Assembly (NCBI RefSeq): GCF_009914755.1
Contig: NC_060947.1
Length of the DNA: 64,000 bases
Direction: 5' to 3' (one strand)
Source of the DNA: the human T2T-CHM13v2.0 reference genome, Homo sapiens
This document shows positions 5,057-58,555 of this stretch, in pieces (the stretch's first letter is position 1; the number at the start of each line of letters is the position of its first letter). Position numbers and translations under genes: made by a program. A model generated the notes under the pieces. That model ran no database searches and was not told where the DNA came from. It worked only from the letters and a program-made list of their open reading frames with translations.

Positions 5057-5637
5057 TGAGGGAAAGCAACTGGTACAGAGCAGGAGAGAATGGTCCTCAG
5101 CCCCTGCCCTAAAATGTTTGTAATCTAAAACATGCGGGTGCCAAACAATTTACTGAACAACTTACATACAGCAGTGTTCTAAGAACACTATAAATATTAA
5201 CTTACTTATGCATCAGGAAACACACTGAGGTAAGTACTATCATTGCTGAAACTAACAGAAGAGTAAACAAGGACTCAGAAAGGTTAAGTGACTTGTCCAA
5301 GGTCACATAGCTAGTAAGAAGTAGACTAGCTAGTGCCAGCGTCCCTGTTCTTAACTGCAACACTATGGAGCTCCTCGAGTAGAAAATAAGTAGCAGAAAA
5401 CATCTAACCACACGTAGAGAACACATAATGGACACTATCCCATCTTCTCTCCCCCTGCCTCCCAAACACTGAATAAAAGCATTCCATGCAGGTAGAAGAT
5501 AAGGGTATCTTATGGGGAAGACATGGAGCTGAAGCTTCAGGGGATTAATTTGCAAAGCATCCACTAAGTTCATAGAACTAATGGAGGTTGTTAAGGAAGT
5601 ATGAGGCTCCATTTGTGCCCTCACTGAACTCAAAGTC

Positions 5638-30809: not shown

Positions 30810-31039
30810 TTACGATGAAGATGACAGTGGATGTTTTGTGTTAAAGAGAATTTTCCTAACCTCAAAATATTATTCCTCAAGATGTACTTACTATAAGGAT
30901 ACATGAGAAAAATTGACAGTATTCATAATGATATGTATATATTTATTTTCTCAGCTAAGGGATTTGGAGTAGGTTGAAGCCCTGGAACAGAACAGGTAAA
31001 TAAAACCCAAAGTTACTTCTAATCCTCATTTTCTTCATT

Positions 31040-31052
31040 AGTTTCAGTTTCC
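31040..31052. promoter_or_regulatory. Consensus ISRE motif AGTTTCAGTTTCC (intronic)
   Basis: Exact match to AGTTTCNNTTTCY; function not shown by sequence alone. Confidence 0.45.
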
Positions 31053-33027
31053 TCCCTTAAATACCTCTTATCAGAGTTCATTAGAGCTATTTCATCCACT
31101 TTCCCAGTCACACTGTTTATTCTGGAAAGCTCCATGAAGTCAGTGACTGTTAATGTCTCATTTAAGACTGTATAACTTAGTCCCATGTCTGCTACGTGAT
31201 GCCTTCTGTGAGTCTTTGTTAAATAAACAAATACTAAACAGATTCAGTGAAAAGCCTGTAAACCAGGGAGGGGAAATGAAACAAAAGAGCCCTCCTGGAG
31301 GGCACTATCCACTGGATGGTGAAAAGTACAATGTACTTTAAATGTAAGGATATCTTCCTTACCAAGAATTTAAAATGCTTTAACAAATCATGTTATTTCA
31401 TTTTATCCTTTATTAGTGACATAAAGAGGCAGTGGAGTTCATCTCTAGTGTATGAAGGAAATGCATTGAAATGTAAGCAGGGGATGTTATCTACTTTTCA
31501 CATCACTGTGTCTCCAGTGTCTAGAAAAATGTCTTGCACACAGTATGTGCTCGATAAATATGTTTGGAAGAAGAAAGAAAGAGAAAGAGGGAGGGAGGAA
31601 TGGAAGGAATAAAGGAATTTATTTAACATTATTCACAAATCAGGGGCAGAGTCAAGAAAAAAAGCAGGAGTTTTCCAAACCGGTGGTTTAACCATGTCTA
31701 ATACTATCTTTTTTATAAAAAAAAAACAAAAAAAGCTTTTATTTTAGGTTTAGGGGTATGTGTCCAGGTTTATTATATAGGTAAACTCGTGTCATGGGGT
31801 TTGTTGTACAGATTATTTCATCACTGATCTAATATCATCTTAAGAAACATAGTCATCAACCATTTTTACCTGCTGTCAGGGAATATTTAAAAATAATAAA
31901 ATATCTGTTCATTGACTTGAATTAATGATATTTTAAAATTAGGAAGCAGGTATGGTTACTGTTAACTACCTTTGTTTGTTACTGTCTTCATGGGAGGATG
32001 CTGCTACTGGTCTGTAATCCACTAGGACTGTGCTTACAGTAACTATTTCAAACATGATGATAGGCTTTACACTGGCTCACTCCCAGGCCCTTGTGGGATC
32101 ACCAAGTATCTGGAACCAGAGATCAAGGCAAAGTGAATTGTCTACTCAAGGATGGAGCTCATGACCTTGACCTCATCGACCAAATGCTCCAGACAGAGGA
32201 GCTGATCTTTATGTCACAAATAACTAAAAATAGGGGAGAGAATATACAGAAGAGAAGAAGGTATTAGGCTCTATTTGTCCTCCATTTATGAGGAAGAATC
32301 AAAAGCCATGGCATCCTCACTGAAGAAATTGGATCTCCTGAACATTTGTCATGTTCCATCAAGTCCAAGGCATCTAAAAGGAAATGGGCTGCCTCAGGCA
32401 GAAATGTTGAAGGATAGCACAGATCTAAGGGGATGTTACAGGGGAAATTCACGCTTCAGCAGGATGAACAAAATGTTTCAATCCCTTCTAATCTTGATAT
32501 TAAACACCTGTTCTTTAAGAATTCCAAAATTTAAAGCTACACTTTGCTTTGCATAATATTATGGAAAAGACTTTAGATTAGGGCTCTTGTTCTGGTTCCG
32601 CCACTACATTGCGTTTTGACTTCGGGCTACTTTCCCTCTCTTGTCTTCAGTTTACTCCTCTATAAAATGGTTTTTAGAATATATTCCAACTCTAAAGTTT
32701 TGGGAAGTTTTTACCTAGAACCAGAGGGGTCTAGTTAGAATGCTGACACTAATTGGACAAGCCATTTCAGTTCTGTGAGACTGTTTCATCATCTTTAAGA
32801 AAAAAACTTCTGTTAGATATTTCACAGGATCCCAAGTCCATTCATTCAGTTACCTCTCTTATTCCCTTTTCAATAATACAAAACCAAAAGTTGACATGTT
32901 CTGATATATACTTAAATTTTTTCACCAGTAGTAATTTCCAGTTACCCATAAATACCTCATACCTTATGTGGCAAAAAGTAAATATTTCCTACATAAGATA
33001 ATAAATACCTTTTCCCATATCAGATTA

Positions 33028-33324
<297 letters not shown>

Positions 33325-34321
33325 TCACTGACTTTCATTTAACCATTACAGTGGAGTTGTATGGGGTTTTGGTAGCATGAATCATCTTTCCAAGATTTAT
33401 TCACCAGTGAATCTTGAGTACCCACCTCTTATGTCCTAGAGACAATACTAGTTGCTCAATATAAAGCAATGGGCACAGCTGAATCCTGTTCTCTTGCTCA
33501 TAGACTAACAGGAAGACAGATAAGCAGAGTTCTCCGCTACAAGAACTCTGAGGCAAGTACTCTATAAGTGATCAGTACACACAGCCTTGAGCGTAAAAAT
33601 GAGTGAATGTAGGCACAGTTCCCTAGAAGCACCAAGAAGGGCATGACTGAGGATACAATGAGCAATTTGGACCTTAATCAATGTGCAGGAGTTTGCCCGG
33701 TAGATGACATGGAAGTTGACGTTCTAGTGCTCAATGAGAAAGGCTTAGGGGCAGGGGGGTGGAAATGTGGCATTCAGGACACTGCACGCTGTTTGGTATT
33801 GCCAGGATAGAGAAATAGTAGAAGGGGCTGCAAATTGAAACTTGGGAATCATTAGCATGTAAGTTGGGAAATAGATATGATGGGCCATGGAACAGGTATA
33901 GAATGCAAGAAAAGAGGACCAAAGATAAACCTTTAGAAGGTCCAAGTACCTAAGGAGTGGGGAGAGGAAGATTATTCAGGGGAGACGGAGAAAGTACAAT
34001 CAGAGAGGTCAAGGAAATCTGGAAAAGAATGACAATGTGGAAGTCGGTTAAAAAAAAAAAGCATTTGAAAGACAACTTGTAAATCTTGTCTAATGCTGCT
34101 ATAGCCCAGTGGGATAAGAACTGCATTTGGCAATGAGATGGTGGTCCTTTTTAACTTAGCAAGAGCATTTTCATTCAGATGGGTGTAGGGGTCATACATC
34201 AGTAGATTCCTAAATGTATTTCATACCACTTGGATCATGTCACCACCCCCTCCAATATCCTGCGAGGCCTCCTCATTGCTCAAGAATAAACTCAGCCACC
34301 TTTTATACACCAATATGACCC

Positions 34322-34610
34322 TGTAAACCAAAAACTATTTGAGATAGGTCTCAATCAATTCACAAGTTTATTTTGCCAAGGTTAAGAACATGCCCAGAAG
34401 AAAAGAACACAGAATTTATAGAAACAGTCTGTGGTTTGTGCCTTTCTCCAAAAATAATTTTGAGGGCTTCAACATTTATAGGAGAAAAGTGAGCTGGAGA
34501 GGATAGTGGGAGGGCATGGTAATTCACACATTGCAAGAGAAAGGGGGAAGGTAAGGAAATATTCAGTTATGTATTCATCTCATGCTCAGTAAATCTATTT
34601 TCCTTTCACA
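34322..34610 (-). mobile_element. MER4-family LTR fragment
   Basis: tgtaaaccaaaa...gagataggtctcaatcaatt...aagtttattttgccaaggttaag is the antisense MER4 LTR end. Confidence 0.7.
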
Positions 34611-34759
34611 ACCCCAACCTACTTTTCTAATTTGGTTTCTCTCTATTCTCTTTTGAAATAATTATAAAAATAACTACTATATATTTACTGCCTACTGTAT
34701 GTAAGATTCTGTGCTTGAAAACTTACTTATACTTTCTCATTTTTAAGCCTCACTCTAGT

Positions 34760-34953
34760 ACTGGCATCAGTAAACTATGGCCTGCTGGCCAGCCATTGTT
34801 TTTATAAATAAATTTTTATTGGCACACAGCCACATCCATTGGTTTGTGTATTGTCTATGGCTGTTTTCATGTCACAAGGGCAGAGCTGAGTAGTTGTAAC
34901 AGAGATCTGCAAAGCTTAAACTATTTACTATCTGGCCCTTTACAGAAAAGGAC
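34760..34953. mobile_element. MER58A-like element
   Basis: taaactatggcc...ttttataaataaatttttattggcacacagccac...tatttactatctggccctttacagaaaa. Confidence 0.75.
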
Positions 34954-35370
34954 TGTAGATCCAATCCCTACCCTAGTCAATGCTGGTGCGGGCCTGCCAA
35001 GACTTTATCCACCATCCCCTAGCTGCCTGAGTCACAGCTGATAAGGGCCTACAGCTGCTCCCTTCACTGCCTTTGGCTAAATGGGGGTTATGCTCCCCCA
35101 TACTCTGGGGCAGTCCACAGCCAAAGACTGCCTGATATAAAAGGCTAGCCCCCTTGTCTTGAGGTGTGGCCTAGTCTGTGGCTCAAGTTATGCTCCAGAG
35201 AGCTTCATGGGATAAGGCTGAGGCCAAGTTTCCAGTAAAGATCACATTCTTACTTACCTCCCTCCTTTGTCCCAGCCTGCTTCCCTCATTCCCCTCTGCC
35301 TCAGAGCTCTCCTCAATGAAGCACTTGTAAAACGATCTCCTTTTCAAGCTAGGGAATCCAACCTAAGGCT
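34954..35370 (+). mobile_element. LTR16-family (LTR16A1-like) ERVL LTR, antisense to ACE2
   Basis: gcagtccacagccaaagactg, tataaaa, and the 3' end ctcctcaatgaagcacttgta...ctagggaatccaacctaag resemble the LTR16 U3/R/U5. Confidence 0.75.
35258..35289 (-). CDS. ACE2: Alternative internal first coding exon of truncated ACE2 (dACE2 / MIRb-ACE2): MREAGWDKGG + AG|gtaagt
   Basis: ATG at 35289-35287; 32 coding nt; consensus donor GAG|gtaagt in phase 2, matching the phase-2 acceptor of coding exon 9; the peptide matches the dACE2 N-terminus as I recall it. Confidence 0.92.
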
Positions 35371-35374
35371 CTCA

Positions 35375-35520
35375 CAAGCCTGCAACCTGGGAATTACTAT
35401 TCTACTTTATAAAATAAGGAAACTGAAACCAAAGAAAGTTAAATACCTTGTCCAAGGTTGCATAGTCATTAAGTGACACACCTAGGATTCTGAAGCCTGT
35501 GCTCATTCTGCCACATTACA
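35375..35520 (-). mobile_element. MIR (MIRb-like) carrying the internal promoter
   Basis: tactttataaaataaggaaactgaaaccaaagaaagttaaataccttgtccaaggttgcatag aligns to the antisense MIR core cattttacagatgaggaaactgaggcacagagaggttaagtaacttgcccaaggtcacacag. Confidence 0.85.
35406..35430 (-). promoter_or_regulatory. TATA box (35406-35411) and ISRE (35418-35430) of the internal ACE2 promoter
   Basis: The - strand reads GGTTTCAGTTTCCT tattt TATAAA, about 120 nt upstream of the MREAG ATG. Confidence 0.8.
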
Positions 35521-36197
35521 CAAACTCTCCTTCACTTATTTCTCATTCTAGCCTAACTTGCCGACTTCAGTATGCAGGTCAGGTCCTGCCTCTCTGTATT
35601 TGATCCTGCTGTTCTCACAGCTTGGGTCCTCCTCCCGACTCTGTGTATCTGAATCCTTCTTGTCTTTCCAAACCTAATTCAAATCCCACTTGTAAAGCAC
35701 GGTCTGATCCTATCTCCTATTGCAAATGTGGTCAGTTTTCTTCCAGTTCTCCATAGAGCATGCCCTGTGTCTCTCTTACGACATGTACCACTTTCTCCCT
35801 TCGATCCAAGCGTATTTATTCACCTATTCTGTCTCATTCACAAGAGTGAAACATGGAGGGGAAGATCAATGTGTGATTCATATGTCCATCTTCCAAAAAT
35901 CTTAGCACCAAATCTTTCCTGATATGGGTGCAACCATCCCCATTACCATACAACGCCAATGGATGCATGATATTTCCAAGAAAGCAGATTGTCCACAGGT
36001 TCAAGTTAGAGCCTGCTGGCAATCCTCTTTTCCTGGGAAAACCCAAATGTGCTCTCCTGGACTCCCAGCCTTAGTTCAAGGAGAATTAACTTATCTTTTC
36101 TGTGCTCAGAAAAGCAGAGAAAGAATTCAAGTTAAACTTCAGCCTGCCTCTGTTGTCTCCCATTTAGTATCAGTTGTGTAAGTATCAGCCCCACTAC

Positions 36198-36367
36198 CTG
36201 AAGTCGCCCTTCCCCAGGTCCCAAGCTGTGGGATGGCAGACTGCTTTCTGAACATTTCCTGGGTCCGTTAGCATGGAATTTTCCCAGAATCCTTGAGTCA
36301 TATTAGGAAGACCAACAGATACAAAGAACTTCTCGGCCTCCTTGAATATTCTCTGTGCATCCCAGGC
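36198..36367 (-). CDS. ACE2: ACE2 coding exon 8 (includes H345 and K353)
   Basis: [57 protein letters not shown]; cag/gtagt boundaries; 170 nt. Confidence 0.97.
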
Positions 36368-45495: not shown

Positions 45496-46677
45496 CTGTG
45501 CTTAGAGTGGTTAAATCACTTGTCCAAGATCACACAGCTGGTAAGCGAAAGAAGCACATTCCTAGTCTCTTAACCCTGGGTGTGTACTCTCTTGATACAT
45601 CAGTTTGTATCTTTAGCTTTAAAATATGTGACTGGATCTCTAAGTTTTTAAATTCTTCTTTTGTTCATGGCCTTTTATTTTTAGATCAGACCCAACTCAT
45701 CTTAGACTTTGCCACAGTGAACCTGTGTTTGTTTGCAAATTATATGTATCAATAGCATGTTTCTATGTGCTTCCTTTAGTATCTCACCATCAGAAAACAC
45801 AAGCTTGTGTTAGGATATTAGCTAATAAAGTTTGTAAACATAATTTAATAATTTTTATTTTTACATTCACATTGGCAATTAATGATCAGGAAGATGAGGA
45901 GAGAAATAAATATTTGGATGAAAGGACATGCAGGATATTGTTTTAAAAATGGTGATAAGCTATTGTCTCCAGCTTGCCTAAGGCTTAAGAATACTGAATT
46001 TAAGTGGCAGTGAAAGAAATGTTAAAACAACAAATGCGGGAAAAAAATTCTTCCTTACTCAACCTCAGTGGGCAGTAAATCATCAAAGCAAAATGTGAAT
46101 CATGATTCCATGACTTCAGCTCACTATTCAGGGAAGAGAATAAGTTAAGAGATATGGAAATTCCTTCCTATGTTAAGATTTTTTATGACCACATAATCTG
46201 AGATATAATTACAACTGCAGAAAATAATACATTTCCAGCCTAAACTAATCTGATATTTTTTCTTTCTGGGGTATCACCCTAAGGTAGACACACAAATGAC
46301 CTTTGAAAGTGAACTGTGGGGGCTTTAGACAAAAGGCAGTGACTCTGTCTTTCATCCTGAGAAATGGGATTCCCCCCCTTAATCCCCAGACTCCCTCGGG
46401 AACTTTTAGGGGCCTGAGATCTTCCTAGATTACTTATAATTCATAATTCCTGGATAATTTACTTTAGGCCTTGTAGTTGAGTCTCATTCTTGAGCTTCTT
46501 GAATTGTAGAATGCCAGTGCACCTTTTCTTTTTCCCCAGTAATTTCTTTTGAAAACAGGTAATCTGAATTGTTGAGGACATGATTGTTAATTGAGGGGTA
46601 TCCCTGATATCAAAGGGCAGGCTTGGTAATGCAGAAGAAATAGCCCCGTGGCCACACAGAGAGCTTCAGGACCTCTA

Positions 46678-50103: not shown

Positions 50104-51391
50104 TTAGTCCTCTACTCCGCTGAAGGTCAAGGTTTAGGTTAAGAGTGACCAGGCCACTTTTGACCACTCTCTCTCTCTCTGTCTCTCTCTGGCCTATTGC
50201 CTGGTTTTCCCAAGGGTCTTGTCCCCAGAACTGGAAATGAATTCTCACAGATAATCCACATTGTGGGGCCCTGGAATTTATAGCCTTAGTGCTGTGACAT
50301 AGATGAGTTGGCCAAGAATTCAAAGACGAGTGCTCTAAAAAGAGAATCCAGTAGAGCTCAGAGTGGACTTAATGAGAATACAGCCCCCTAATAACAATGG
50401 AAACCATAAGAAATGAGAACCGGTTCACAGTAACCTCCTAGCTGCCGTGACTTAGCCCAGGGATTTTGATCTTAAGTTAGGATTCCCAAAAAAGGCTTCC
50501 CAGAAAATGGCCATTGGTAGCCATGGTGATTTTCTACCAGCAAAAGAAATCATCAAGCAAGTGATGATGCCAGGACACATTTCCCCCCCTCCTGAATCTT
50601 GAACATCAGTTGGAAAGTGGACTTCTCCAAACTACTGTAGTGTAGTCTTTTCTCAACTTACAAATTCATTTCCATTTACCAAAGACCAAAATGAGCAACT
50701 ACTTGGTATATTGTACTGCCCTAGACCACACAAAAGAGATAACGTTTGAGGAAAGTAAGAATTCTGCTCCTGGACTCAAGTACCTTAGCCTCTCTGAGCC
50801 ACAGTTGTCTTATCTGCAAAATGAAAGTAATAATAGGACTTACCTCCAAGGACTGTTGTAAGGATTTGAAGAAGTAACAAAAAAATGAAATGCTTACAAG
50901 AGTGCCTAACACATCCTAATCATTCAACAAATGTTAGTTATTTTATTATTTATTTATTATTTATTATGTTATGATTTATTTTATATTTTGTTATGTATAG
51001 GGGAAAAGTCATTGTCCTTAGATTGCTTTCCATTTTATCAGACAGATAAGATATGCATTATAAATGTTTCATTAATGAAACATAAGAGTATATAATAATG
51101 TATAAATTATGAGTGGGCCAAGCAGTTTCTGTTACAAGAAAGAGGAAATTCATGCAGGTGACCATACTTGGCCAAGCCCTCATGCAGAAGTTGCAACTTA
51201 AGACAGACCTGAAAGTAGGTAGGAGTCAGATGAGTAGAGAATACTTTGCAAAATAATTTACCTCATTTGATTTTCTTAACAACACTATGAGGTAGAAAAT
51301 CACTCTCTCTCCTTTTTTGTACATACAGAAAGCGGCTGAGAGAAATAAACAGTGGAGCTGGCAATCAGCCACCAGCATTTGATCCTGGCCC

Positions 51392-56776: not shown

Positions 56777-56947
56777 ATTTCTGATCAGTTTTAATTTCCA
56801 TGGCCATTTTTTAAAATTATGACTACTCTCCACTCCACAGGTCAACTCTCCTGATCTGCCTTTGCAAAACTTAAAAAAGCTCATTTCCTATTTCTCACAC
56901 TGGTTCTGTGGCTGACTTCTTTGAGTGCCTCCTTCTCCTTCACTTAC

Positions 56948-57150
56948 CTATTCAAAACTCAGTCAAGGTCACGTGGAAGTAAGAAAGCCTCCACATGGTA
57001 TGAAATCCAAAGAGTATCTATGTCAACTCCTGATCCTCTGTAGCCATGGGATCACAACAACATAGAATTCAAAGAGATTTTAGTGGTTATCTTGTCAAAT
57101 TTCAGAAGCGAGCTCAGTGTCCTCATTGCCAGAGTGTATGTATGAGTGCC
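56948..57150 (-). other. ACE2: ACE2 distal non-coding first exon
   Basis: TAG|gtaagt donor at 56948/56947; TATA-like ATTTAAA about 25 nt upstream of 57150; matches my recollection of the long ACE2 mRNA leader. Confidence 0.8.
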
Positions 57151-58555
57151 ACAGATCAAAGAGAGGAGCACTTTAAATGGCAGGGTTCAAGGGCCTACCT
57201 GACGATGATTGTGAAACTCTGACACAGAGAAAATATTTCTTCACCCAGAAAAACAAGTCTTCCAGGTTCAGGTGACATTGCAATAATCAAGCCTTTAAAA
57301 AAATGTCCACTGCTTTTCCTTATTCCAAAGTTGTGTATATTATTGTAGAATAGGAAAAAAACAATTATAAGTAACTATTCAAAGTGCTTTGTGTTATAAT
57401 ATCTCATTTGAGCATCACAAGAAACCTATAGGCAAATATTTTATCACCATTTTATGAATTATGAAACTAAGTTTAAGTAAATTGCTATATCTCACTCAGC
57501 TAACAAATGATGGAATCAGAACATGGATCTATGTATTCTGATTCTAGAGTATAGGCTCTTAACTAACTTGTAGTCAACAGTCTAAAAGCAATAGTGGAGG
57601 CATAGATAAAATGTGACAGAGGGCCTTGTGCCTCAGTGAAGATGACAGATTTAGTTACACTGCATCAAAAAGAGGTGGACTCTTACTTCCCTTGATGTGA
57701 ATCAAAATATACTCTCCTTTTAAAAAAATAAAGCAGCTCACAAATATAAGTAATAATAATAAAGAATTTTAAATGAAAGTGAGATGAGGGTAAAAAAAAA
57801 AAATCAGTGCAGAAATTTCAGAAAAGCTCCTCCCACATTCCAGGAAACCTAGATCCACTCACTCCTTGCACACAATAGGAGAAAAAACAGGCAAGAAAGA
57901 GGACAGCACACGAGTATCTGAAGAAAAGGTTGAAATGTTACTGTAATAAAAGCGGAAATAAATTTCTACACAGGTAAGTTCCTAAATGAAACACGTGGGT
58001 TTAGTGGAAAAAATGGGAGTAGTCCAAATTCAATTCGCTGAGGCAGAAAATACGATTAACTTGATCAAACTGAAATGGAGAAAGCAAGATATAAAATCTG
58101 AAAGCTAAGAATAAATGAACAAGGAGCCTGGGACAGCAGTGAGGCAGGCAGGAAAATGCTAGAAGCCAAGAAACTTTGAGAAGCAAGGGAAAAGGGAGAA
58201 TAGTCTACAGTGATTCTGTAGAAAAACTAGCCCAGAATGGCCAACTGCAAGCACTGACTGAATTATTGGAATTTTTGTTCACACTTTTTTGAGAAGATAT
58301 CAATGTTCTGATAGTTCCCCAGAAGCGTTCTCTCTGAGCGCATTCCGAGAATGGAAAGAATTCACTGAAGACTCAGGAGATGAGACCCAGAAAAACAATT
58401 GGTCTAAAGGAATGTATTGTCTTTGAGAAAAATTGGAGAATCAGAAAAAATTAGAAGACCAAAGATGCAGGAAAGATGTTCTATGTTTCAAAAAGATTGG
58501 AGGAGGGGGTGGATTTCATAATGGTAAAGGGAAGTTTGACCTTAACACCTAGTAA

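What the first reader, a model, noticed from the sequence alone, without database searches (positions are those of the whole stretch)
35258..35430. Hidden internal first exon and interferon-type promoter encoding an N-terminally truncated ACE2 (dACE2 / MIRb-ACE2)
Seen in sequence: on the - strand of the intron between coding exons 8 and 9, in order, are an ISRE (GGTTTCAGTTTCCT, 35430-35417), TATAAA (35411-35406), an ATG-free leader, ATG at 35289 (purine at -3), codons MREAGWDKGG, and AG|GTAAGT. The 32 coding nt end in phase 2, exactly like coding exon 8, so splicing to exon 9 restores R357-ILMC... and gives 10+449 = 459 aa. The product lacks the signal peptide, the coronavirus spike contact residues (K31 helix, K353) and the substrate residues R273/H345. 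It keeps HEMGH, E402, the collectrin domain and the TM helix. The exon is too short for the ORF track. Established knowledge: this matches the interferon-inducible truncated isoform reported as dACE2 / MIRb-ACE2 / short ACE2, so it is missing from classic annotation but not wholly new. Inference: 'ACE2 induction by interferon' measured with 3' probes would reflect this isoform rather than the virus receptor.
Basis: partly seen in the sequence, partly recalled or inferred. Interest (0 to 1): 0.95.

Follow-up and report, generated by a model that had tools for sequence, protein, structure and literature searches.

The report
Known interferon-induced short ACE2 first exon

Summary
The exon ends in phase 2, like coding exon 8. 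Splicing to 33292 gives a 459-aa ORF whose last 449 residues equal ACE2 357-805.

Three 2020 preprints describe the same exon. I read passages of each. They give the same ten residues, the 459 aa, the donor and the 1965-bp intron. They place the TATA box 148 nt and the ISGF3 site 159 nt upstream of the splice site.

The hub's RefSeq table lists exon 35258-35397, a promoter and two motifs here. Published work reports interferon induction, no spike-RBD binding, no carboxypeptidase activity, and a protein that is unstable or hard to detect.

Added here:
- The ISRE and TATA lie inside a MIR-type repeat core, and two sibling copies in the window lack both motifs.
- The annotated exon start lies only 14 nt after the TATA box.
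- A perfect ISRE lies in the next intron.

Verdict: already known, low interest.

The parts
36035..36044 (-). NF-kB-like motif GGGTTTTCCC, 787 nt upstream of the splice site
   Evidence: 2 matches in the window against 0.16 expected. The position equals the one quoted in the Blume preprint. Binding was not tested here.
35474..35480 (-). AP-1-like motif TGTGTCA, 223 nt upstream of the splice site
   Evidence: Quoted in the Blume preprint. Binding was not tested here.
35438..35459 (-). Core of a dispersed MIR-type repeat that carries the promoter. It lies inside the RefSeq mobile_genetic_element 35374-35497.
   Evidence: 3 copies in the window (5283-5304, 35438-35459, 45510-45531) against 0.06 expected, with 0 of 100 shuffles reaching 3. 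One search aligns the three copies. The name MIRb comes from the literature.
35431..35442 (-). Second GAAA-repeat (IRF-type) motif abutting the ISRE. RefSeq lists it as a nucleotide_motif.
   Evidence: reads TTAACTTTCTTT on the gene strand. The hub table lists 35431-35442. RefSeq's own label for it was not seen.
35417..35430 (-). ISRE / ISGF3 site, GGTTTCAGTTTCCT on the gene strand, which is GAAACTGAAAC on the + strand
   Evidence: RefSeq nucleotide_motif 35417-35430 (hub). The Blume preprint calls it a near-consensus ISGF-3 site 159 bp upstream of the junction.
35406..35411 (-). TATAAA box
   Evidence: It lies 148 nt upstream of the splice site, as in the Blume preprint.
35258..35397 (-). Alternative first exon (Ex1c / exon 9a), 140 nt as annotated
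   Evidence: The hub table lists 35258-35397 under 'exons of other transcripts'. The Onabajo preprint gives a 140-bp Ex1c. The Blume preprint gives about 122 bp, which puts the start near 35379.
35290..35397 (-). 5' leader with no ATG. An in-frame TGA lies at 35346-35344.
35258..35289 (-). Coding part of the exon: ATG plus 9 codons plus 2 nt (MREAGWDKGG, phase 2)
   Evidence: The same ten residues are printed.
35252..35257 (-). Donor intron bases GTAAGT. With the exon's last AG they form the full U1 consensus.
   Evidence: The Blume preprint prints AG|GTAAGTA.
33293..35257 (-). Intron removed in the short isoform, 1965 nt
   Evidence: The length equals the GRCh38 intron quoted.
33066..33292 (-). 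Coding exon 9, the acceptor exon. Its first base completes the R357 codon, and it holds HEMGH and E402.
   Evidence: Pfam Peptidase_M2, E 1.6e-33, profile positions 332-404 of 581.

Best explanation
This is the published intragenic promoter and alternative first exon of human ACE2, known as Ex1c, exon 9a, dACE2, MIRb-ACE2 or short ACE2.

Mechanism:
1. Interferon signalling, by inference ISGF3 (STAT1/STAT2/IRF9) with IRFs, acts on the ISRE at 35430-35417 and the adjoining GAAA repeat at 35442-35431. Both lie inside an ancient MIR-type repeat.
2. RNA polymerase II starts downstream of the TATAAA at 35411-35406.
3. The 5' exon is joined through a perfect U1 donor (AG|GTAAGT, last exon base 35258) to coding exon 9 at 33292.
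4. The first AUG of the transcript (35289) opens a frame of ten new residues that runs in phase into ACE2 R357-F805. The product is 459 aa and 52.7 kDa.

The product has no signal peptide. It lacks the first ~57% of the M2 peptidase fold, most spike contacts and the substrate residues R273 and H345. It keeps the zinc motif, the collectrin-like domain and the TM helix. In published assays it neither binds the spike RBD nor cleaves substrate, and it is poorly stable.

What is shown here is the sequence anatomy and its exact identity with the printed descriptions. Transcription, interferon induction and loss of function are shown in the literature. Which factors bind and which base is the true start site are inferred.
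For: Anatomy and reading frame.

Identity with print:
- Ten residues, 459 aa and 449 shared residues.
- Donor, ATG, TATA, ISGF3, AP-1 and NF-kB distances of 29/148/159/223/787 nt, and an intron of 1965 nt.
- The Ng isoform-specific primer maps uniquely at 35329-35311.
- The hub table lists exon 35258-35397, promoter 35398-36197 and motifs 35417-35430 and 35431-35442.

Transcription and interferon induction (passages read):
- Sendai virus, IFNs and rhinovirus induce Ex1c but not Ex1a/b.
- IFN alpha, gamma and lambda induction, with FANTOM5 CAGE support.
- H3K4me3, a DHS and IFN-beta-raised Pol II and H3K27ac at the intronic promoter, with JAK-inhibitor sensitivity.
- Tilorone induces the short but not the long transcript in fully humanised mice.
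- dACE2 rises in SARS-CoV-2-infected humanised mice.

Loss of function: no RBD binding and no carboxypeptidase activity; no enzyme activity and no stable protein.

Truncation point: Peptidase_M2 profile position 332 of 581.

Repeat origin: plus the review passage.
Against: Nothing argues against the identity. Open points on the mechanism:
- The RefSeq/Onabajo exon start (35397) lies only 14 nt after the first T of TATAAA. The Blume estimate (about 35379) lies 32 nt after it. The true start, and so the role of the TATA box, is not settled by what I could read.
- The only STAT ChIP evidence I saw was STAT5 in K562 cells. I saw no direct ISGF3 occupancy of this ISRE and no motif-mutation test. 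The final journal versions were not held.
- Protein existence is contested. Endogenous protein was not detected. Against that, a ~52 kDa band and both isoforms on blots were reported, as were peptides in tumour proteomes.
- In small-airway cells the full-length first exons also respond to IFN 2-10 fold.
Confidence: 0.96

Rival explanations
1. The element works chiefly as an interferon-responsive intragenic promoter/enhancer. The spliced transcript is a by-product, and its protein is degraded and has no function of its own.
For: No stable protein was found even after over-expression, lysine mutation or MG-132. Endogenous protein was not seen on blots. The site carries combined promoter/enhancer marks. 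Human intragenic sequence made a mouse upstream promoter interferon-sensitive in MP-ACE2 mice. My own inference: there is one hydrophobic segment only (residues 397-415 of the short form), no signal peptide and a basic C-flank. A 394-residue N-terminal part would therefore have to cross the membrane without a signal peptide, which is unfavourable.
Against: A ~52 kDa band was reported in airway cells and both isoforms on a blot. Peptides matching the ten unique residues were reported in tumour proteomes. Ex1c is described as highly conserved among primates. This reading disputes only the fate of the protein, not the identity of the exon.
Confidence: 0.5
2. dACE2 is a stable membrane protein with a role of its own, for example in cilia or amino-acid transporter chaperoning through the retained collectrin-like domain.
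For: It keeps the collectrin domain (Pfam PF16959, E 1e-28) and the TM helix. Expression in ciliated airway cells and a 52 kDa band were reported. Primate conservation was argued.
Against: No function has been found. A 2026 review still says other roles remain to be studied. Protein instability is reported. There is no signal peptide.
Confidence: 0.15
3. The motifs co-occur by chance and no exon is there.
For: AGGTAAGT alone is not enriched: 5 observed against 2.76 expected, and 15 of 100 shuffles reach 5. Six other ATG/phase/GTRAGT cassettes exist in ACE2 introns.
Against: RT-PCR with Sanger-verified junctions, RNA-seq junction reads and CAGE are in print, and RefSeq lists the exon (hub table). 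Only 1 of the 7 cassettes has an ISRE core, TATAAA and AG|GT together.
Confidence: 0.01

Closest known systems
dACE2 Ex1c (Onabajo et al., preprint PMC7386494; the final Nat Genet 2020 paper was seen only in reference lists)
   Same: Same locus, a 140-bp exon equal to RefSeq 35258-35397, ten unique residues and 459 aa. It is IFN- and virus-induced, with no RBD binding and no carboxypeptidase activity.
   Different: Nothing differs in sequence terms. Their numbering calls the host intron 'intron 9' because it counts a non-coding first exon.
LTR16A1-ACE2, later renamed MIRb-ACE2 (Ng et al., preprint 10.1101/2020.07.24.219139)
   Same: Same ten residues, 449 shared residues and IFN induction, with an unstable product. 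Their primer maps at 35329-35311.
   Different: The preprint credits an LTR16A1 element as the promoter and as the source of the ten codons. By the hub's element coordinates the ISRE, the TATA box and the exon start lie in the 35374-35497 element. The review names MIRb and LTR16A1 as the two retroelements. The other element lies at 35584-35691, and the ten codons and the donor lie outside both.
Short ACE2 exon 9a (Blume et al., preprint 10.1101/2020.07.31.230870)
   Same: Identical donor, ATG, TATA, ISGF3, AP-1 and NF-kB positions, intron length, 459 aa and 52.7 kDa.
   Different: It gives an exon of about 122 bp, so a start near 35379 rather than 35397, and it reports a detectable protein.
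Testis ACE (tACE): an intragenic promoter giving a shorter isoform of the paralogue ACE. The comparison is made in the Blume preprint.
   Same: An internal promoter within an M2-peptidase gene yields an N-terminally shorter membrane protein.
   Different: By my recollection, not tested here, tACE is a complete, active single-domain enzyme with its own signal peptide. dACE2 starts in the middle of the only peptidase domain (profile position 332 of 581) and is inactive.

Membership tests
dACE2 / MIRb-ACE2 / short ACE2 first exon | Lies in the intron between coding exons 8 and 9 of human ACE2 ('intron 9' in 19-exon numbering) and is spliced to the exon that starts at R357 | tested here: met
   The intron of 1965 nt equals the published one.
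dACE2 / MIRb-ACE2 / short ACE2 first exon | Encodes the ten unique residues MREAGWDKGG and gives a 459-aa product | tested here: met
   compared
dACE2 / MIRb-ACE2 / short ACE2 first exon | Published isoform-specific primer and promoter motif positions map here | tested here: met
dACE2 / MIRb-ACE2 / short ACE2 first exon | Transcription starts here and is induced by interferons | not testable with these tools
   Literature only:
dACE2 / MIRb-ACE2 / short ACE2 first exon | Primate-specific exon | not testable with these tools
   No mammalian genomes were on hand. Stated.
MIR-derived (exapted SINE) promoter | The promoter sequence belongs to a dispersed repeat family | tested here: met
   3 core copies in the window against 0.06 expected, with the alignment. 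The best non-self blastn hit was 42 nt, 78.6% identity, E 0.004. The family name MIRb was not tested, as no repeat library was on hand.
ISRE (ISGF3/IRF site) | Tandem GAAA half-sites, GAAANNGAAAC | tested here: met
   The consensus itself is recalled. The Blume preprint calls the site near-consensus.
ISRE (ISGF3/IRF site) | Bound by ISGF3 and needed for induction | not testable with these tools
   I saw no direct ChIP or mutation data for this motif, only STAT5 ChIP in K562 cells.
Active M2 zinc carboxypeptidase | Complete Peptidase_M2 domain | tested here: not met
   The retained part starts at profile position 332 of 581. HEMGH, E402 and H505 are kept, but R273 and H345 are lost. No activity in the published assays.

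The most novel reading that the evidence does not exclude
The promoter ISRE cluster (35442-35417) and a second, perfect-consensus ISRE in the next intron (GGAAACTGAAACT on the gene strand, 31053-31041) together form an intragenic interferon-sensing module. Besides driving Ex1c, this module would lend interferon sensitivity to upstream full-length promoters in some cell types. That would explain the 2-10 fold rise of Ex1a/b reads in small-airway cells and the IFN-responsive mouse promoter in MP-ACE2 mice. Separately, the lack of a signal peptide ahead of a 394-residue part that is lumenal or extracellular in full-length ACE2 may be the direct cause of the protein's instability.
Probability: 0.15. 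Interest if true: 0.3.

Novelty: already known. Interest (0 to 1): 0.08.

Why it matters
The biology matters, but it has been in print since 2020. Interferon raises a truncated ACE2 transcript, not the coronavirus receptor, from a repeat-derived promoter inside the gene. This corrected the claim that ACE2 is an interferon-stimulated gene and eased worries about interferon therapy. It is also a textbook case of a transposon-derived promoter making an immune-regulated isoform.

For this scan, the value is as a positive control. A reader with sequence alone recovered a 32-nt coding first exon and its promoter exactly.

Three questions remain open in what I could read: the true start site, direct proof that the ISRE is needed, and whether the protein is stable and does anything.

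Tried and rejected
- Chance co-occurrence was rejected (and the published junction evidence).
- I looked for an extension of the ORF upstream of 35289. It is closed by TGA at 35346-35344, and there is no ATG in the leader.
- I tested whether the second GAAACTGAAAC site at 31041-31051 is another copy of the same repeat. Only about 20 nt align (20 nt, 90%, E 0.05). In the three-way alignment it shares little beyond the motif, so this is not shown.
- A cassette at 30904-30892 (ATG, 13 nt, ATA|GTAAGT) lies 137 nt downstream of that ISRE. It has a weak exon side at the donor, no TATA and no annotation. I treat it as chance.
- The final journal versions of Onabajo et al. and Ng et al. were not held, so promoter dissection or motif mutation data in them, or in the preprints' closed supplements (for example Onabajo Fig. 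S1), may exist unseen.
- Earlier findings of this scan were not open.
- The short isoform was neither folded nor searched as a whole, because it is a joined sequence. Only single-exon translations were sent to Pfam.
- A literal-motif search of papers (12 papers hold one of three 13-mers, 10 listed) tied only the Blume preprint to ACE2. None of the 10 listed titles concerns ACE2 apart from the Blume preprint, so I found nothing tying the 31053-31041 site to ACE2.

Full report
**Observation**

I read the minus strand at 35750-35150. All the listed features are there.
- GGTTTCAGTTTCCT lies at 35430-35417 and TATAAA at 35411-35406.
- ATG lies at 35289-35287, with G at -3 and A at +4.
- Nine further codons follow, so the exon encodes MREAGWDKGG, and two further bases AG precede GTAAGT. 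The last exon base is 35258.
- The acceptor of coding exon 9 is ...cag|G at 33292.
- Coding exon 8 ends ...TTC AG|gt at 36198.

A script over the annotated exons rebuilt an 805-aa ACE2 with one terminal stop.
- Coding exon 8 ends in phase 2 and exon 9 starts in phase 2.
- The 32 coding nt of the new exon also end in phase 2.
- Joined to exons 9-18 they give 459 aa, and the last 449 are identical to ACE2 357-805.
- The 108-nt leader from the annotated exon start (35397) holds no ATG.
- An in-frame TGA at 35346-35344 closes the frame upstream, so 35289 is the first AUG of the transcript.
- K31, R273, H345 and K353 fall in the lost part. HEMGH (374-378), E402 and H505 are kept.

**Chance**

- The ISRE core GAAANNGAAAC occurs 5 times in the window against 0.96 expected. 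0 of 100 shuffles reach 5.
- AGGTAAGT occurs 5 times against 2.76 expected, and 15 of 100 shuffles reach 5. Alone it means little. However, 3 of the 5 sit exactly at exon ends in the hub table: 35258, 56948 (an upstream ACE2 first exon) and 57973 (ACE2-DT exon 1).
- A scan of all 36,604 intronic nt between ACE2 coding exons looked for ATG / open frame / correct phase / GTRAGT within 300 nt. It found 7 cassettes on 6 donors.
- Only this cassette has both an ISRE core and TATAAA within 250 nt upstream, and only this one has AG before the GT.

**What it is**

Single-exon translations confirm the gene.
- Exon 9 matches Pfam Peptidase_M2 (E 1.6e-33) from profile position 332 of 581.
- Exon 13 matches the end of that domain.
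- Exon 17 matches Collectrin (E 1e-28).

The short form therefore keeps about the last 43% of the peptidase profile, the collectrin-like domain and the TM helix. One search gives 52.7 kDa. It finds one strongly hydrophobic segment (Kyte-Doolittle 19-window mean 3.32 at short-form residues 397-415) and a hydrophilic N-terminus (mean -0.38 over the first 40 residues). The flank after the TM segment is basic.

**Comparison with print**

I read passages, not whole texts.

The Blume preprint (10.1101/2020.07.31.230870) describes 'exon 9a'.
- It has an AG|GTAAGTA donor and an in-frame ATG 29 nt upstream of the splice site.
- A TATA box lies 148 nt upstream and a near-consensus ISGF-3 site 159 bp upstream.
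- An AP-1 site lies 223 bp upstream and an NF-kB site 787 bp upstream.
- The removed intron is 1965 bp and the protein is 459 aa, 52.7 kDa.
- The window gives the same numbers: 29, 148, 159, 223, 787 and 1965.

The Ng preprint (10.1101/2020.07.24.219139) adds the following.
- It prints the same ten residues and 449 shared residues.
- It reports induction by type I, II and III interferons and FANTOM5 CAGE support.
- It found no enzyme activity and no stable protein, even with lysine mutants or MG-132.
- Its isoform-specific forward primer maps once in the window, at 35329-35311.

The Onabajo preprint (PMC7386494) adds the following.
- It describes a 140-bp Ex1c, which equals 35258-35397, and 459 aa, with conservation only in primates.
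- It reports induction by Sendai virus, interferons and rhinovirus, no RBD binding and no carboxypeptidase activity.
- It did not detect endogenous protein on blots, but found matching peptides in tumour proteomes.

Later work agrees.
- H3K4me3, a DHS, and IFN-beta-raised Pol II and H3K27ac mark the intronic promoter, and the response is JAK-inhibitor sensitive (PMC8172581).
- Tilorone induces the short but not the long transcript in fully humanised mice (PMC9987828).
- dACE2, there called 'transcript variant 5', is detected and rises on infection in other humanised mice (PMC10632133).
- A 2026 review lists it as a MIRb/LTR16A1-derived start site and promoter (PMC13709765).

The hub's RefSeq table carries the exon, a promoter at 35398-36197, a cis-regulatory region at 35398-35497, motifs at 35417-35430 and 35431-35442, and two mobile elements at 35374-35497 and 35584-35691. 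The final journal versions of the Onabajo and Ng papers were not held.

(a) Repeat origin of the motifs.
- The promoter core belongs to a dispersed repeat. A 22-nt core pattern has 3 copies in the window (5283-5304, 35438-35459, 45510-45531) against 0.06 expected, and 0 of 100 shuffles reach 3.
- blastn gave a 42-nt, 78.6% match (E 0.004) to the first sibling.
- In the three-way alignment (mean column identity 64%) the ISRE and the TATAAA lie just 3' of the shared core.
- At the homologous columns the two siblings have no GAAANNGAAA core and no TATAAA. Both motifs are therefore states of this copy. The literature names the family MIRb, which I could not test without a repeat library.
- By the hub's element coordinates the ISRE, the TATA box and the exon start lie in the 35374-35497 element. 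The ten codons and the donor lie outside both listed elements.

(b) Start site. The annotated exon start (35397) is only 14 nt after the first T of TATAAA. The Blume estimate of a ~122-bp exon puts it near 35379, which is 32 nt after the first T. By my recollection that is the usual TATA-to-start spacing. The start site is thus not settled by what I could read.

(c) Topology (inference). There is no signal peptide, a single TM segment and a basic C-flank. A 394-residue N-terminal part would have to cross the membrane unaided. This could underlie the reported instability.

(d) A second ISRE. GGAAACTGAAACT reads on the gene strand at 31053-31041 in the next intron. By my recollection of the consensus it is a perfect ISRE. 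It is not in the hub's element list.

**Verdict**

The feature is already known, experimentally characterised and annotated.
- It is no longer missing from annotation.
- Keeping the zinc motif does not mean activity.
- In primary small-airway cells the full-length first exons also rose 2-10 fold with interferon, so the '3' probe' inference is largely but not universally right.

Noticed in passing
window 31041-31053 (gene strand is -): A second exact GAAACTGAAAC, reading GGAAACTGAAACT on the gene strand. By my recollection this matches the ISRE consensus perfectly. It lies in the intron between coding exons 9 and 10, about 4.3 kb downstream of the dACE2 start, and is not in the hub's functional-element list. 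It could be a further interferon-responsive intragenic element or chance.
   Followed up: partly
window 5283-5304 and 45510-45531 (both - strand): Two sibling copies of the MIR-type core that carries the dACE2 promoter, one in a BMX intron and one in an ACE2 intron. Neither has an ISRE core or TATAAA at the homologous place.
   Followed up: yes
window 35379-35397: Published 5' ends of the exon differ by about 18 nt: 140 bp in RefSeq and Onabajo, about 122 bp in Blume. Only the shorter one gives the usual ~30-nt spacing from the TATAAA.
   Followed up: partly
window 56942-56949 (-) and 57972-57979 (+): Two of the five perfect AGGTAAGT strings in the window are the donors of an upstream ACE2 first exon (56948-57150) and of ACE2-DT exon 1 (57873-57973). 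With 35258, that makes 3 of 5 annotated donors. The other two (5228-5235 +, 50838-50845 -) are not annotated.
   Followed up: partly
window 30892-30904 and 34727-34740 (- strand): Two other short ATG / in-phase / GTAAGT cassettes in ACE2 introns. The first lies 137 nt downstream of the second ISRE. The second has a TATAAA within 250 nt upstream. Both have weak exon-side donor bases and no annotation, so they are probably chance.
   Followed up: no
window 35258-35373: The ten codons, the donor and most of the leader lie outside both RefSeq mobile-element spans (35374-35497, 35584-35691). Whether they are repeat-derived, as the Ng preprint's 'exonisation' wording implies, could not be decided without a repeat library.
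   Followed up: no
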